Shown here piece after piece: positions 29,643-36,372 of a stretch of 48,041 nucleotides of DNA. How positions within the stretch are numbered: the stretch's first letter is position 1; every line of letters begins with the position of its first letter. The DNA is from a virus. Its lineage: Duplodnaviria > Heunggongvirae > Uroviricota > Caudoviricetes. The translations under genes and the position numbers were made by a program. The stretch is from IMG/VR virus record IMGVR_UViG_2721755720_000004. One strand, written 5' to 3'. A model generated the notes under the pieces. That model was not told the origin of the DNA. It did not search any database and saw only the letters and a list, made by a program, of their open reading frames with translations.

Positions 29643-29814
29643 TGCTCCTCCCGGACGGGATAATGTGTTAACTAAGATGAGAGAGCAGGTGACAGCCCCG
29701 GCCGCATGAAAGTTCTGAGAGGGAAGTGCTGCCTGCTGCTCCATTGCACAGATTAATTACTGTCTGGTAGTATTCAGTGGCTGATTAGAATACTTCACAT
29801 TTTGTTATTTTGTG

Positions 29815-29846
29815 CAGCCCGTTACCATTCGTAGCGGGCTTTTTTT
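29815..29846 (+). terminator. intrinsic terminator (plus strand)
   Basis: Hairpin GCCCG...CGGGC followed by TTTTTTT (gcccgttaccattcgtagcgggcttttttt). Confidence 0.5.
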
Positions 29847-29849
29847 GTC

Positions 29850-29876
29850 CATAAAAAAGCCCCTCCGGAGAGGGGC
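29850..29876 (-). terminator. intrinsic terminator (minus strand) about 30 nt downstream of repeat unit 1
   Basis: Minus strand GCCCCTCTCCGGAGGGGC then TTTTTT; 7-bp GC-rich stem with 4-nt loop. Confidence 0.6.
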
Positions 29877-29907
29877 ATACTAGCTATATATCCATTTATC
29901 ATTGGCT

Positions 29908-30037
29908 GCGTGGTGCCGGGTGCCTCCCGGTGAGCTCAGTCTGGTGTCACTGAGCCCGCACATTCTCGATCCAAGTTATCGTCGGAGATAATACCTGATA
30001 CACCAGACGCCCCTCCGCACAGGGGGATTCACCACGC
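29908..30037 (-). ncRNA. candidate structured small RNA, repeat unit 1 of 4
   Basis: 130 nt; terminal 8 bp GCGTGGTG/CACCACGC pair; conserved GCCGGGTGCCTCCCGGTG and AGGGGGATTC motifs; variable centre with its own 9-bp stem (GTCTGGTGT/ACACCAGAC). Strand inferred from flanking terminator and one G-U wobble in unit 3. Confidence 0.45.
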
Positions 30038-30264
30038 GCAGAGAAGGATACTGAACACTATTTTCTCCAGGCAATATGCAATAACATGAAGTGTGAGATG
30101 ACTTACAATTATAAAAAACAGCCTACAGAATACTCCTAAATAAAGCCATATCAAAATGAGTAACACAAAAAGGAACCAGGCAAAAATTTACGAGCAGGTA
30201 TTATCCAGCAACAGTTCAGACGCCATAACTTATTGCCGATAGCTACCATCAATAATTTCTTTCA

Positions 30265-30289
30265 TAAAAAAGCCCCTCTGAAGAGGGGC
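30265..30289 (-). terminator. intrinsic terminator (minus strand) about 30 nt downstream of repeat unit 2
   Basis: Minus strand GCCCCTCTTCAGAGGGGC then TTTTTT. Confidence 0.6.
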
Positions 30290-30316
30290 TGACATACGCA
30301 TTTGCTTTCATCATCA

Positions 30317-30439
30317 ATATGGCGCCGGGTGCCTCCCGGTGCTCCATAACTGATTAATATGGAACGCGGTTTCATTCAGTTGCATTCATGAATAACACTC
30401 TAATCAGTCCGCCCCGCCGCTTAGGGGGATTCGCCATAT
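30317..30439 (-). ncRNA. candidate structured small RNA, repeat unit 2 of 4
   Basis: 123 nt; terminal stem ATATGGCG/CGCCATAT, which covaries with the other units; same conserved 5' and 3' motifs. Confidence 0.45.
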
Positions 30440-30574
30440 AAATTGAAAGTACTGAACACATCTGTCACAAACAATATGCAATTGTATGAATTGTGAGATT
30501 ATTATCAATAACACAAAATTACAGCTCTAGTACATAAACAGCAGATTAAACAAGAACAACAAAAGTATTGAATT

Positions 30575-30698
30575 GCACGGTGCCGGGTGCCTCCCGGTGA
30601 ATTCTGCAATGACCAGACAGAATCCGCAACTTGCTACTAACGCTAATGCGACCAAGCCTCAGTCATTATGCCCCTCCGCACAGGGGGATTCACCATGC
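30575..30698 (-). ncRNA. candidate structured small RNA, repeat unit 3 of 4
   Basis: 124 nt; terminal stem GCACGGTG/CACCATGC (one C-A on the plus strand, G-U on the minus strand); conserved motifs present; no canonical terminator nearby. Confidence 0.35.
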
Positions 30699-30826
30699 GC
30701 TAAAAAAATACAAAACGTCACGTCACTCTGACAATACGAAGCACCATAAAATGTGAGTTATTTATCAATTCTTAATTCTGGTTACAGGAATATTCCGAAT
30801 CAAATCTTTAAAAAAAGAAATTCAAA

Positions 30827-30931
30827 TGCATGGTGCCGGGTGCCTCCCGGTGAACAGACCGTCCGTGATACCAGTCGGCAACACAGGAAATTAATGGTAT
30901 CACCCCACCGCACAGGGGGATTCACCATGCA
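30827..30931 (-). ncRNA. candidate structured small RNA, repeat unit 4 of 4
   Basis: 105 nt; 9-bp terminal stem TGCATGGTG/CACCATGCA; internal 9-bp stem GTGATACCA/TGGTATCAC; conserved motifs present. Confidence 0.35.
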
Positions 30932-31319
30932 GGCGTTTTCTTAGCAAACTAACTGCGCGCCCGGCAACTCCCAACCACATAAAACGTGGAGTTTGTAGCA
31001 TTTATGCACATAACTCACAGGGGTTATCTTAAAAAAAGCTGACCATGCTTCCCCGGCAACGCAATAACTTTATTCCCTGAAGTGGCATCCCCCGTATTGT
31101 CGGCAGGCTCAAAAAGGAGCCAGTCATCTGAGGATGACTGGAAAAAGGAAAGATAAAAAATTATTCATCATACAACCTTCGTTGCAGGGGAGAATCCTGC
31201 GGTGCAGCAACATACAAAAACATAAGCCAACTAACAATATGCAGGCATAGCATTTTCGGATTTTGTTATATGGCACGGTAACTGAATGCTTACCTGATAT
31301 ACAGTCCGGTATAAAGTTG

Positions 31320-31342
31320 CAAAAAACCGCCAGTTAAGGCGG
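31320..31342 (-). terminator. putative intrinsic terminator (minus strand) downstream of the tRNA pair
   Basis: Minus strand GCCGCCTTAACTGGCGG then TTTTTTG. Confidence 0.45.
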
Positions 31343-31585
31343 CATTCAAACAGACAACAGGATTTTTTCGTAATTTTAACAACTTCGGGGTGGCGCATCG
31401 TCAGCCCCTGTCAGGAAGTACCAGAACTCCCTCCAACAATATCCCCCCATTCAGCGTTATCAAACACAGCACAGAAACTATCAATGTTTGCTGTTACAGT
31501 TAGGGAAAAAACGATAAATACGCCACAGGCTCTTTTTGCTGTGAAGTAAAAACTGATCTGAAAGACTGCTCATCATTTATTTTGC

Positions 31586-31663
31586 TGGACCGTCACCGGG
31601 GACTCGAACCCCGCATTTTCAACATAAAAAGGTTGATGCTCTTTCCTGATGAGCTAGTGACGG
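31586..31663 (-). tRNA. tRNA-like gene with an 8-nt anticodon loop (identity undetermined)
   Basis: Hand fold: acceptor CCGTCAC/GTGACGG (7 bp), U8-A9, D-stem GCTC/GAGC, anticodon stem TCAAC/GTTGA closing loop CTTTTTAT (8 nt), T-arm CGGGG-TTCGAGT-CCCCG, encoded CCA. Needs tRNAscan-SE / ARAGORN. Confidence 0.5.
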
Positions 31664-33304: not shown

Positions 33305-33335
33305 TCATAAAAAACCCGCCAGGCGGCGGGGTGTA
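33305..33335 (-). terminator. tR'-like intrinsic terminator downstream of the late promoter
   Basis: Minus strand CCCGCCGCCTGGCGGG then TTTTTTAT, about 45-70 nt downstream of the promoter-like element, as for the lambda pR'-tR' short transcript. Confidence 0.55.
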
Positions 33336-35971: not shown

Positions 35972-36127
35972 TTACTCCTCAGGTTCGTAGACTGTGAAAA
36001 CAGCGACCTCCGTCTGGCCGGTTCGGATTCGTACCTCGCAGAGGTCTTTCCTCGTTACCAGTGCCGTCACTATGACGGTTAAACAGATGACGATCAGGGC
36101 GATTAACGTCGCCTTTTGCTGCTTCAT
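35972..36127 (-). CDS. hok: Hok/Gef-family type I toxin
   Basis: 51 aa MKQQKATLIALIVICLTVIVTALVTRKDLCEVRIRTGQTEVAVFTVYEPEE, near-identical to the Hok/Gef/RelF family consensus; the in-frame upstream extension in the ORF track is not used. Confidence 0.85.
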   Translation of the reverse strand: MKQQKATLIALIVICLTVIVTALVTRKDLCEVRIRTGQTEVAVFTVYEPEE

Positions 36128-36372
36128 AGCCTGCTTCTCCTTGCCTTTCGGCACGTAAGAGGCTAACCTACATTTGTGAGACATAGATTGGGCCTCAGAT
36201 TAATGTTAAGCGTCTTGCAGGACGCGTTATGTTAACTGGGGCTTTTCTCTGTCTGCCTTACGGCGGCATGCCCGAGGCAGACAGCCTCAAGCACCCGCAG
36301 CAATTCTACTTAACTCTCGCTTTACAGCAAACCGTTTTTGCCCAATATGGGAATTCCCATATCGCAATGAAT

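What the first reader, a model, noticed from the sequence alone, without database searches (positions are those of the whole stretch)
29850..30510. Units 1 and 2 look like stand-alone minus-strand sRNA genes: conserved upstream box, structured body, hairpin plus U-tract
Each of units 1 and 2 is followed on the minus strand, about 30 nt downstream, by a canonical intrinsic terminator (GCCCCTCTCCGGAGGGGC-TTTTTT at 29850-29876; GCCCCTCTTCAGAGGGGC-TTTTTT at 30265-30289). Each is preceded by a conserved AT-rich box; on the minus strand this reads ATCTCACA.TTCAT...ATTGCATATTG...TGTTCAGTA and ends 8-9 nt before the unit (plus-strand coordinates about 30045-30110 and 30445-30510). This predicts two transcripts of about 180-190 nt. 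Units 3 and 4 lack the full box and a clear terminator, so they may be decayed copies or read-through-dependent. A plus-strand terminator at 29815-29846 lies back-to-back with the first minus-strand terminator and separates the array from nanS-p.
Basis: partly seen in the sequence, partly recalled or inferred. Interest (0 to 1): 0.6.

Follow-up and report, generated by a model that had tools for sequence, protein, structure and literature searches.

The report
Prophage STnc100-family small RNA gene array

Summary

All four units pass Rfam's threshold for STnc100 (RF02076; 77-133 bits against a cut-off of 47). Other family members (EcOnc27/sRNA103, EcOnc04/05/06/13, PasD1/2) are Northern-validated sRNAs of 172-247 nt, Hfq-bound or Hfq-dependent. 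They lie between the late promoter and the lysis genes of lambdoid prophages, which is exactly this position: Q, tR', two tRNAs, the array, the nanS-p-like esterase, then lysis genes.

By homology, units 1 and 2 are complete genes with a sigma-70-like promoter at the family position. I predict +1 near 30037 and 30439, and RNAs of about 185 and 174 nt. Each has a structured body, a 27-31 nt variable linker (the PasD seed position) and a terminator with a U-tail.

Units 3 and 4 keep the promoter layout but have no terminator. Their transcripts should end at unit 2's terminator.

Additions:
- A covarying pseudoknot in the body that is absent from the Rfam structure line.
- Arrays and multi-body forms in many Enterobacterales.
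- A probable AsxR/AgvB-like convergent partner.

Verdict: a new member of a known kind, of modest interest.

The parts
29853..30037 (-). Unit 1: predicted sRNA of about 185 nt (STnc100 family)
   Evidence: Rfam RF02076 scores 132.9 bits over 30067-29847. The +1 is placed by homology to the estimated PasD2 5' end. RNAfold gives -75.7 kcal/mol, z = -3.05.
30045..30074 (-). Unit 1 proximal promoter: -35 TTGCCT (30074-30069), 18-nt spacer, -10 TATCCT (30050-30045)
   Evidence: Scores 8/12 at the family-conserved position. It falls below the 9/12 threshold of the generic scan. TTG of the -35 and TA of the -10 are invariant in all four units.
30086..30099 (-). Unit 1 CTCACA box (ATCTCACACTTCAT); function unknown
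   Evidence: A related box lies 65-67 nt upstream of the GAATCCCCC anchor in three window units and 34 of 98 unique IMG/VR units. A perfect TATAAT at 30113-30108 lies 8 nt upstream of the box (read directly from the sequence).
29908..30037 (-). Unit 1 structured body. P1 30037-30030 pairs with 29915-29908. Hairpin A is 30026-30010. Pseudoknot strands are 30008-30000 and 29947-29939. P3 is 29957-29949 with 29940-29932. Hairpin B is 29930-29916.
29877..29907 (-). Unit 1 single-stranded linker (AGCCAAUGAUAAAUGGAUAUAUAGCUAGUAU); putative seed region
   Evidence: It occupies the same position as the UGUGAG seed of PasD. It is mostly unpaired in the predicted fold. Its sequence differs from that of unit 2.
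29853..29876 (-). Unit 1 intrinsic terminator GCCCCTCTCCGGAGGGGC plus U6
30266..30439 (-). Unit 2: predicted sRNA of about 174 nt (STnc100 family)
   Evidence: Rfam scores 99.6 bits over 30465-30260. RNAfold gives -63.2 kcal/mol, z = -3.37. P1 is AUAUGGCG/CGCCAUAU, which carries three compensatory changes relative to the family consensus.
30446..30474 (-). Unit 2 proximal promoter-like site: TTGTTT, 17-nt spacer, TACTTT (weak, 6/12)
30481..30508 (-). Unit 2 distal promoter-like site: TTGATA, 16-nt spacer, TACAAT (10/12). It overlaps the CTCACA box at 30486-30499.
   Evidence: It is the best sigma-70-like hit of the region. It would give an RNA of about 208 nt. The site is specific to unit 2 and not family-wide.
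30266..30289 (-). Unit 2 intrinsic terminator GCCCCTCTTCAGAGGGGC plus U6. It is the first terminator downstream of units 4 and 3.
30290..30316 (-). Unit 2 linker (UGAUGAUGAAAGCAAAUGCGUAUGUCA); putative seed region
30575..30734 (-). Unit 3: promoter TTGTCA-18-TATTTT (30734-30705) and body (30698-30575), with no terminator
   Evidence: Rfam scores 101.5 bits. The promoter scores 9/12. No terminator lies within 130 nt of the body. A transcript starting at about 30698 would end at 30266, giving about 433 nt.
30828..30967 (-). Unit 4: promoter-like TTGCCG-18-TAAGAA (30967-30938) and a reduced body (30930-30828) that lacks the P3 hairpin; no terminator
   Evidence: Rfam scores 76.6 bits, with the P3 region missing. 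The same variant recurs in other loci (L002, L013, L044, L113).
29780..29846 (+). Candidate convergent small RNA ending at the plus-strand terminator (stem 29816-29840 plus U7). Its position matches that of AsxR/AgvB in the known 'sRNA dyads'.
   Evidence: Terminator. Weak alignment to AgvB/AsxR/EcOnc03 with 27 invariant columns. Fold z = -3.63. A -10-like TAGAAT lies at 29786-29791 (read directly from the sequence). There is no Rfam AsxR or AgvB hit at E <= 1.

Best explanation
Units 1 and 2 are two divergent, complete genes of the STnc100 / EcOnc27 / PasD family of prophage small RNAs. They sit in the 'moron' slot of an stx-negative lambdoid prophage, between the late antiterminator Q with its tR' terminator and the nanS-p-like esterase and lysis genes.

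Proposed mechanism:
1. In the lysogen, late transcription stops at tR'.
2. Transcription starts at the first base of an 8-bp closing helix, at about 30037 and 30439.
3. The RNA folds into a compact body: P1, invariant hairpin A, a pseudoknot with the loop of P3, and invariant hairpin B.
4. A 27-31 nt variable single-stranded linker follows. The RNA ends at a GC-rich terminator with a U6 tail, at about 29853 and 30266.
5. By analogy with PasD and EcOnc27, the linker plus terminator is the Hfq-binding and target-pairing part, and the two different linkers give the two RNAs different targets.
6. Units 3 and 4 have the promoter and the body but no terminator. Their transcripts should run on to unit 2's terminator, giving nested co-terminal RNAs of about 433 and 665 nt that carry two or three bodies.
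7. During lytic growth, Q-modified polymerase should read through the whole array.

Shown here: family membership, structure with covariation, terminators, the promoter-like elements and the genomic context. Inferred: actual transcription, the exact 5' ends, Hfq dependence, the seed role of the linker and the targets.
For: - Four RF02076 hits score 76.6-132.9 bits against a cut-off of 47. Nothing else matches the body even at E <= 10.
- Context is Q (PF03589), a tR'-like terminator at 33330-33315, two tRNAs, the array, a SASA/DUF6645 esterase, holin and lysozyme.
- Published relatives occupy the same slot and are Hfq-bound or Hfq-dependent sRNAs on Northern blots. PasD1/2 are 172-173 nt (PMC8550237). 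EcOnc27 is 235/247 nt, EcOnc06 about 177 nt, EcOnc13 about 187 nt and EcOnc04/05 about 222 nt (PMC4104026).
- The EcOnc27 Hfq cross-link peak maps to the stretch from hairpin B to the terminator (my coordinate conversion).
- The estimated PasD2 5' end is the G of GCAUGGUG, 7 nt after a TTGACT-18-TAAAAA promoter.
- The same -35/-10 position is enriched across 53 non-redundant relatives: 28 score at least 8/12, against 3-5 at shifted positions.
- Blastn similarity of unit 1 to Stx2 phages (about 82%) covers only 29847-30038, from just past the terminator up to the predicted +1.
- P1 has compensatory changes in 7 of 8 pairs and is 89.8% paired. The whole structure is 79% paired against 40-47% for slid controls.
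- Predicted folds of the two RNAs have z = -3.05 and -3.37, with the linker largely open.
- A study in Salmonella LT2 shows the RpoD and RpoN binding pattern at STnc100 copies (PMC10794520).
Against: - There are no transcript data for this prophage.
- The proximal -10 elements of units 1 and 2 are weak (TATCCT and TACTTT). The generic scan flags neither of them, and promoter-like hits in the region are not above chance (6 found against 4.9 +/- 2.5).
- EcOnc27 and EcOnc04/05 give RNAs of 222-247 nt, longer than the proximal start predicts. A more upstream start or processing from a longer transcript is therefore possible. Candidate upstream elements are TATAAT at 30113-30108 and the TTGATA-16-TACAAT site at 30508-30481.
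- The first 30 positions of the Rfam model lie upstream of my +1.
- The near-invariance of both hairpins, loops included, is not explained by a simple seed-pairing model.
- Targets are unknown, and the linkers carry no known seed such as the UGUGAG of PasD.
Confidence: 0.75

Rival explanations
1. The units have no promoters of their own. They are structured segments of the Q-dependent late transcript, or of read-through from upstream genes, and any small RNAs arise by processing.
For: - The array lies inside the late operon, downstream of Q.
- EcOnc27 is 235/247 nt and starts close to the stx2B stop codon, so it could be derived from a 3' UTR.
- Units 3 and 4, and 55 of 150 family units, lack terminators.
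- The -10 elements of units 1 and 2 are weak.
Against: - A strong tR'-like terminator follows Q, and two more terminator-like hairpins precede the array. Little transcription should therefore reach the array in a lysogen.
- PasD and the EcOnc RNAs are nevertheless abundant in uninduced lysogens.
- The -35/-10 position is conserved across otherwise unrelated upstream sequences.
- The estimated PasD2 5' end sits 7 nt after a -10 element.
Confidence: 0.1
2. The conserved pseudoknotted body is itself the functional part. It would be a protein-, RNA- or ligand-binding module, that is a decoy, sponge or sensor. The array is then a multivalent version of it, and the variable linker is secondary.
For: - Both hairpins are invariant or nearly invariant, loops included, in 49 diverse sequences, although hairpin B was fixed by the exact 18-mer used to collect them. 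The helices P1, P3 and the pseudoknot covary freely.
- Bodies occur back-to-back at about 130-nt spacing, with no room for promoters and with a single terminator-like hairpin after the group, on a Pantoea plasmid downstream of a DUF1133 (Q-like) gene.
- Arrays of 2-6 units occur in many prophages.
- Here units 4, 3 and 2 share one terminator.
Against: - No partner is known, and no other Rfam family resembles the body.
- PasD RIL-seq chimeras and the predicted seed map to the 3' linker and terminator, not to the body.
- A 5' structured domain may simply protect the RNA from 5'-end-dependent decay.
Confidence: 0.2
3. Each unit is a cis-acting leader, like a riboswitch or attenuator, that controls read-through into the downstream genes (nanS-p and the lysis cassette).
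For: - The layout of promoter, P1-closed pseudoknotted domain with invariant nucleotides, then intrinsic terminator resembles a transcriptional riboswitch.
- Unit 1 lies about 210 nt upstream of nanS-p.
- In E. coli-type units the 3' half of hairpin A (CGGAGGGGC) is identical to the 3' half of the terminator. It could therefore pair with the terminator's 5' half (inverted repeat I1).
Against: - That complementarity is absent from relatives with unrelated terminators such as AAGGCTGCCGATTGGCGGCCTT and GCCTGCTTTTTTAGCAGGC.
- Downstream neighbours are inconsistent. They include another unit, a convergent sRNA terminator, an esterase and a tolA-like gene.
- A convergent terminator separates unit 1 from nanS-p.
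- Relatives have many trans partners on Hfq.
Confidence: 0.05

Closest known systems
STnc100 (Rfam RF02076), that is EcOnc27 / sRNA103 of EHEC Stx2 phage Sp5 / 933W
   Same: - The covariance model matches full length.
- The body is the same: P1, hairpin A (GAAUCCCCCUGUGCGGAGGGGC), P3 and hairpin B (CACCGGGAGGCACCCGGCACC).
- The slot between the late promoter and the lysis genes is the same.
- The CTCACA box is the same.
- A convergent partner with a back-to-back terminator is present in both.
   Different: - Overall identity is only 54-69%, and the linker and variable region differ.
- There is no stx gene upstream.
- Four units stand in tandem here instead of one.
- EcOnc27 is 235/247 nt on Northern blots, against my predicted 185 and 174 nt.
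PasD1 / PasD2 of EPEC E2348/69 (homologues of EcOnc13)
   Same: - The architecture and the size class (172-173 nt) are the same.
- The promoter-to-P1 spacing is the same.
- The pseudoknot is present (AAUGAUC with GAUCAUU).
- PasD2 sits directly upstream of a sialate esterase gene, and the seed lies in the linker.
   Different: - Hairpin B of PasD is shortened, and PasD2 does not reach the Rfam cut-off.
- Identity to the window units is 55-60%.
- The PasD seed UGUGAG is absent from both linkers here.
- PasD lacks the CTCACA box.
- PasD copies are reported as dispersed rather than tandem (bioRxiv 10.64898/2026.05.13.724894).
AsxR / AgvB / EcOnc03 anti-sRNAs (the partner in the 'dyads of Hfq-binding sRNAs')
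   Same: The plus-strand element at about 29780-29846 sits exactly where AsxR sits relative to EcOnc27. It is convergent and its terminator is back-to-back with that of unit 1. It is similarly short and shares the motif GTAT..T..TGC..GCCCG..ACCATTCG..GGCTTTT.
   Different: It gives no hit to RF02702 or RF02703 at E <= 1. Its terminator stem is longer, it carries a 9-nt insertion, its 5' end is unknown and its -35 is weak.
Sibling or multi-copy sRNAs (OmrA/B, PrrF1/2, Qrr1-5) and multi-module sponge RNAs (CsrB/RsmZ)
   Same: Paralogous sRNA genes stand in tandem with shared scaffolds and differing pairing regions. Some transcripts may carry several repeated structured modules.
   Different: There is no sequence relationship. 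The units here are as divergent from one another as from copies in other phages. That points to assembly by recombination rather than recent duplication. No protein partner is known.

Membership tests
STnc100 (RF02076) | Covariance-model score at or above the curated gathering score (47 bits) | tested here: met
   Unit 1 scores 132.9, unit 3 101.5, unit 2 99.6 and unit 4 76.6 bits, all on the minus strand. The body alone scores 98.9 bits.
STnc100 (RF02076) | Closing helix P1 plus hairpins A and B, supported by covariation | tested here: met
   P1 has compensatory changes in 7 of 8 pairs and is 89.8% paired. Hairpins A and B are 99-100% paired. None of 500 shuffles reaches the observed values. 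Units 1 and 2 themselves carry compensatory P1 changes.
STnc100 (RF02076) | Location in a lambdoid prophage between the late antiterminator or late promoter and the lysis genes | tested here: met
   The order is Q (PF03589), tR', tRNAs, the array, SASA esterase, holin and lysozyme. The slot is described in PMC4104026 and PMC7873438.
STnc100 (RF02076) | Own sigma-70-type promoter at a fixed distance from P1 | tested here: inconclusive
   The elements are present at the family position in all four units (8/12, 6/12, 9/12 and 7/12). They are weak in units 1 and 2, and activity cannot be tested with these tools.
STnc100 (RF02076) | Intrinsic terminator with a U-tail about 30 nt after the body | tested here: met
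   Met for units 1 and 2. Not met for units 3 and 4, as for 55 of 150 family units.
STnc100 (RF02076) | Expression as a discrete Hfq-bound RNA | not testable with these tools
   This is known only for relatives.
PasD1/PasD2 alleles | Near-identity to PasD and the UGUGAG seed in the linker | tested here: not met
   Identity to PasD2 is 55-60%, and neither linker contains UGUGAG.
AsxR/AgvB anti-sRNAs (for the plus-strand partner) | Match to RF02702 or RF02703, or the conserved 3' region of about 42 nt | tested here: not met
   There is no hit at E <= 1, whereas Sakai AsxR scores 88.1 bits. Only a weak alignment with 27 invariant columns is found.
AsxR/AgvB anti-sRNAs (for the plus-strand partner) | Convergent with an STnc100-type sRNA, with terminators back-to-back | tested here: met
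   The plus-strand terminator at 29816-29846 abuts the minus-strand terminator at 29853-29876. Sp5 has the same geometry.
Transcriptional riboswitch or attenuator | A conserved alternative (antiterminator) pairing and a consistent class of downstream gene | tested here: not met
   Complementarity between hairpin A and the terminator exists only with the E. coli-type terminator. Downstream neighbours vary.

The most novel reading that the evidence does not exclude
The STnc100 body would be an autonomous, pseudoknotted RNA module with a function of its own. It might bind a host or phage protein, RNA or small molecule, or act as a decoy against a host nuclease or defence system.

Lambdoid prophages would deploy it in one to six copies just downstream of the late antiterminator. 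Some copies are separate sRNA genes and some are multi-body transcripts. On this reading the four-unit array is a multivalent device rather than four ordinary seed-pairing sRNAs.

The pseudoknot, and the invariant loops of hairpin A and probably hairpin B (which the search 18-mer fixed in my sample), would be the functional surface.
Probability: 0.22. Interest if true: 0.6.

Novelty: new member of a known kind. Interest (0 to 1): 0.3.

Why it matters
The finding puts names on an unannotated 1.1-kb stretch. RefSeq annotates nothing between the tRNAs and the esterase gene, and the phage records annotate nothing beyond an occasional hypothetical protein at the homologous spot.

It shows that an stx-negative prophage carries four paralogues of the sRNA that flanks stx2 in EHEC, in the slot where Stx phages carry the toxin. 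SNPs in that EHEC sRNA have been linked statistically to HUS (PMC12711010). The prophage is found mostly in mouse-derived E. coli.

It gives testable predictions of transcript ends for two new alleles with new linkers.

The family-level points may help explain why the scaffold is so conserved while the pairing regions vary. Those points are the fixed promoter, the covarying pseudoknot, the terminator-less units and the multi-body units. They could also improve the Rfam model, whose first 30 positions appear to be promoter DNA.

Tried and rejected
1. Plus-strand terminator as AsxR or AgvB. Rfam gives no hit at E <= 1. Only a weak alignment is found, so I keep it as a candidate and not as a member.
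2. Similarity of the body to any other Rfam family. At E <= 10 on 136 nt, nothing appears except a chance snoRNA hit.
3. tRNA or tmRNA likeness. ARAGORN calls only the two real tRNAs. The resemblance of GGTGAATCC to a T-arm is treated as coincidence.
4. Resemblance of hairpin A to a type I-E CRISPR repeat. I checked this by eye only and dropped it.
5. Coding potential. The short ORFs across the units do not keep a frame between units, so I rejected this.
6. A second upstream promoter P2 just 5' of the CTCACA box. It could explain the 222-247 nt isoforms. Unit 1 has a perfect TATAAT there and unit 2 has GATAAT. In most relatives, however, the best hexamer is TTAAAT or TAAATG with poor -35 elements, so this remains unresolved.
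7. Fixed-register counting of the pseudoknot on the MAFFT alignment. The sequences split between two registers (53% and 58% paired at slides 0 and -1, against 27-39% at other slides). I therefore relied on the alignment-free shuffle test.
8. My first automated promoter scan mis-assigned several groups, for example CGGTGA-17-CATAAT. I corrected this by inspection.
9. The 625 nt between the tRNAs and unit 4. They have no blastn match in the phage collection and no Rfam hit.
10. Megablast of the whole array against phages. It matched only the tRNA part.
Full report
**What is in the sequence.** The window is a lambdoid prophage. It is 99.9% identical over the 2.1-kb query to E. coli CI5 NZ_CP011018. 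On the minus strand the order is as follows:
- antiterminator Q (34234-33413, PF03589);
- a strong tR'-like terminator (33330-33315);
- a small ORF and a DNA methyltransferase (32839-31781);
- tRNA-Ile and tRNA-Lys (31741-31586);
- about 1.95 kb with no annotated gene;
- a SASA/DUF6645 'nanS-p-like' esterase (29642-27708), then holin and lysozyme.

This is the 'moron' slot where Stx phages carry stx.

**Check of the observation.**
- Both minus-strand terminators and the plus-strand terminator are found by the scan at the stated places. The region holds 8 terminator-like sites against 2.7 +/- 1.7 in shuffles.
- The upstream box is a real repeat (family D2; alignment A1).
- The 18-mer CACCGGGAGGCACCCGGC occurs four times on the minus strand, against 0.03 expected.
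- The linker between body and terminator is 31 nt in unit 1 and 27 nt in unit 2.
- One correction is needed. Units 3 and 4 do keep the promoter layout, and unit 3 has the best match of the four. What they lack is a terminator.

**Identity.** All four units pass the Rfam gathering score for STnc100, RF02076. Unit 1 (30067-29847) scores 132.9 bits, unit 2 (30465-30260) 99.6, unit 3 (30727-30530) 101.5 and unit 4 (30960-30782) 76.6, against a cut-off of 47. No other family matches the body, even at E <= 10.

**What the literature says about the family.**
- The copy 3' of stx2B in Sp5 is EcOnc27/sRNA103. It is Hfq-crosslinked, gives Northern bands of about 235/247 nt, and is convergent with the anti-sRNA AsxR (PMC4104026, PMC7873438, PMC12711010).
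- The probe sequences of EcOnc05 and EcOnc06 match STnc100-type bodies that I collected. Northern sizes are about 222 nt for EcOnc04/05, about 177 nt for EcOnc06 and about 187 nt for EcOnc13.
- PasD1/PasD2 of EPEC are 172-173 nt and abundant, and the paper reports Hfq-dependent stability. They have many RIL-seq partners (PMC8550237). A 2026 preprint reports them as structural homologues of STnc100 (10.64898/2026.05.13.724894).
- 'Dyads' of convergent Hfq-binding sRNAs are described in this slot in at least eight Sakai prophages.

**Promoter and 5' end.**
- I retrieved the PasD2 locus. Its estimated 5' end (table S6) is the G of GCAUGGUGAAUCC. That is the first base of the closing helix P1, 7 nt after TTGACT-18-TAAAAA.
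- I collected 150 units by scanning IMG/VR for the exact 18-mer core. I reduced them to 53 upstream representatives that share less than 85% ungapped identity.
- Of these, 28 score at least 8/12 for a -35/-10 pair at that same fixed position. Only 3-5 do so at three shifted control positions. Distant members have clear promoters there, such as TTGACA-18-TAAATT.
- The window equivalents are given below.

| Unit | -35 | Spacer | -10 | Predicted +1 |
|---|---|---|---|---|
| 1 | TTGCCT | 18 | TATCCT | about 30037 |
| 2 | TTGTTT | 17 | TACTTT | about 30439 |
| 3 | TTGTCA | 18 | TATTTT | about 30698 |
| 4 | TTGCCG | 18 | TAAGAA | about 30930 |

- TTG of the -35 and TA of the -10 are invariant in all four units.
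- With 3' ends in the U-tracts, units 1 and 2 give RNAs of about 185 and 174 nt, inside the validated range of 172-187 nt.
- Blastn similarity of unit 1 to Stx2 phages (about 82%) covers only 29847-30038, from just past the terminator up to the predicted +1.

**Caveats on the 5' end.**
- Generic promoter hits in the region are not above chance.
- Units 1 and 2 have the weaker -10 elements.
- Unit 2 has a better distal site, TTGATA-16-TACAAT at 30508-30481.
- Unit 1 has a perfect TATAAT at 30113-30108.
- Isoforms of 222-247 nt exist in relatives.
- The first 30 positions of the Rfam model lie upstream of my +1. The 5' ends therefore remain predictions.

**The upstream box.** The 5' half is a CTCACAATTCA-type box, which sits 65-67 nt upstream of the GAAUCCCCC anchor in three window units and in 34 of the 98 unique IMG/VR units. 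It is absent from the more distant units, where the promoter is nevertheless present, and from PasD2. Its role is unknown. It could be an UP-like or activator site, or the 5' end of the long isoforms.

**Structure.**
- RNAfold on the two predicted RNAs gives P1 from +1, hairpin A, a variable part, hairpin P3, hairpin B, an open linker and the terminator (z = -3.05 and -3.37).
- On 49 diverse bodies (alignment A2), P1 has compensatory changes in 7 of 8 pairs. Hairpins A and B are almost invariant, although the exact-18-mer search itself fixes hairpin B in this sample. The full structure is 79% paired against 40-47% for slid controls.
- In addition, the 6-10 nt just 3' of hairpin A are complementary to the loop of P3 in nearly every sequence. 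Examples are GUCUGGUGU with ACACCAGAC in unit 1, GACUGAUUAG with UUAAUCAGUU in unit 2 (the terminal pairs are G-U wobbles), UAAUGAC with GUCAUUG in unit 3, and AAUGAUC with GAUCAUU in PasD2.
- There are 39 distinct helix sequences among the 49 bodies. Of these, 23 are individually significant at p < 0.05 against loop shuffles, and the combined p is 4e-22. That combined value is not corrected for relatedness.
- On the sequence-only alignment the signal splits over two registers. Covariation scores are 0.34 and 0.37, against 0.08-0.17 at other slides.
- This pseudoknot is not in the Rfam structure line and is not mentioned in the 2026 preprint.
- Unit 4 belongs to a recurrent reduced variant without P3, in which the two strands form an ordinary hairpin.

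**Arrays and terminator-less units.**
- The four units are only 54-69% identical to each other, to PasD2 and to EcOnc27. The array is therefore not a recent duplication.
- The exact four-unit arrangement is rare: 16 of 5426 complete E. coli genomes have it.
- Arrays as such are common. Of the 120 IMG/VR loci, 16 hold two to five exact cores. Rfam confirms 3, 3, 6 and 4 units in L002, L023, L075 and L179.
- The core occurs in many Enterobacterales genera.
- Of 150 units, 95 have a terminator within 130 nt after the core, mostly 20-40 nt after it, and 55 have none.
- On a Pantoea plasmid, downstream of a DUF1133 (Q-like) gene, bodies follow each other at about 130-nt spacing, and a single terminator-like hairpin follows the group.
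- Multi-body transcripts are therefore probably natural. Here units 4, 3 and 2 share unit 2's terminator, which would give RNAs of about 665, 433 and 174 nt.

**Mechanism.**
- Best supported: units 1 and 2 are independent sRNA genes active in the lysogen. The linker plus terminator is the Hfq-binding and pairing part. In PasD the predicted seed lies there, and the EcOnc27 Hfq peak maps from hairpin B to the terminator by my coordinate conversion.
- The two linkers differ, so the targets should differ.
- During induction, Q-modified polymerase would read through the array.
- The extreme conservation of the body is not explained by this model. A function of the body itself, as a binding module or decoy, remains possible and is my 'novel case'.
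- The riboswitch-like and processing-only readings are weaker, for the reasons given under the rival explanations.

**The plus-strand terminator.** It sits exactly where AsxR sits relative to EcOnc27. The 70 nt upstream of it align weakly with AgvB, AsxR and EcOnc03 and fold well (z = -3.63). Rfam does not recognise it. It is a candidate divergent anti-sRNA and not a proven one.

**Verdict.** These are new, uncharacterised members of a known family, in an unusual four-unit arrangement. Interest is modest. The family-level structural points, namely the pseudoknot and the modular arrays, are the part worth following up.

Noticed in passing
window 29780-29846 (+): A short plus-strand element ends at a 10-bp terminator with a U7 tail. 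It is convergent with unit 1, in the position AsxR/AgvB anti-sRNAs occupy in EHEC 'dyads'. It aligns weakly to them, gives no Rfam hit, and has a -10-like TAGAAT at 29786-29791.
   Followed up: partly
window 30086-30099, 30486-30499, 30746-30759 (-): The CTCACA(A)TT box upstream of the units is the same motif as the RIL-seq target motif of PasD (CUCACA). It is complementary over 7 nt to the PasD seed region (UUGUGAG). My rough estimate of the chance probability is about 0.04, so this could be coincidence or cross-talk with long isoforms.
   Followed up: partly
window 29847-30067 versus Rfam model positions 1-30: The first 30 or so positions of the Rfam STnc100 model align to what looks like promoter DNA: the spacer, the -10 and the discriminator upstream of the PasD-type +1. 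The model may be over-extended at its 5' end.
   Followed up: partly
window 31120-31141 and 31326-31343 (-): Two further terminator-like hairpins lie in the 625 nt between tRNA-Lys and unit 4. This stretch has no Rfam hit and no blastn match in the phage collection. It may hold other small transcripts, or the terminator of the tRNA genes.
   Followed up: partly
window 31586-31663 (-): ARAGORN reports this tRNA as 'tRNA-???' with a four-base anticodon, tttt. RefSeq annotates it as tRNA-Lys. The anticodon loop may be unusual.
   Followed up: no
window 36122-36296 (-): There is a sok antitoxin RNA (Rfam 116.4 bits) next to a hokD-type toxin gene, that is a type I toxin-antitoxin locus in the early region of the prophage.
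   Followed up: no
window 33315-33330 (-): A strong intrinsic terminator (CCCGCCGCCTGGCGGG plus T6) lies about 85 nt after the Q stop codon. It is the likely tR' of the late operon, which implies the array is not reached by late transcription in a lysogen.
   Followed up: partly
related loci: Nine of the 16 complete E. coli genomes that carry the full four-unit arrangement are mouse isolates (M1, M3, PG20180057, three records of strain 8178, DEF10, DEF2, FEA3, 3-72). This suggests a lineage or host association for this prophage.
   Followed up: no
L179 894-2010 (Pantoea sp. App145 plasmid pAPP145_2): STnc100 bodies lie back-to-back at about 130-nt spacing, with no room for promoters between them. 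They sit downstream of a DUF1133 (Q-like) gene and two short promoter-plus-terminator units. Such multi-body RNAs do not appear in the papers I read.
   Followed up: partly
L002 4736-5461 (E. coli M19): A unit 4-type, terminator-less unit sits directly upstream of a tolA-like 'moron' gene. Terminator-less units may therefore serve as promoter plus 5' leader for cargo genes.
   Followed up: no
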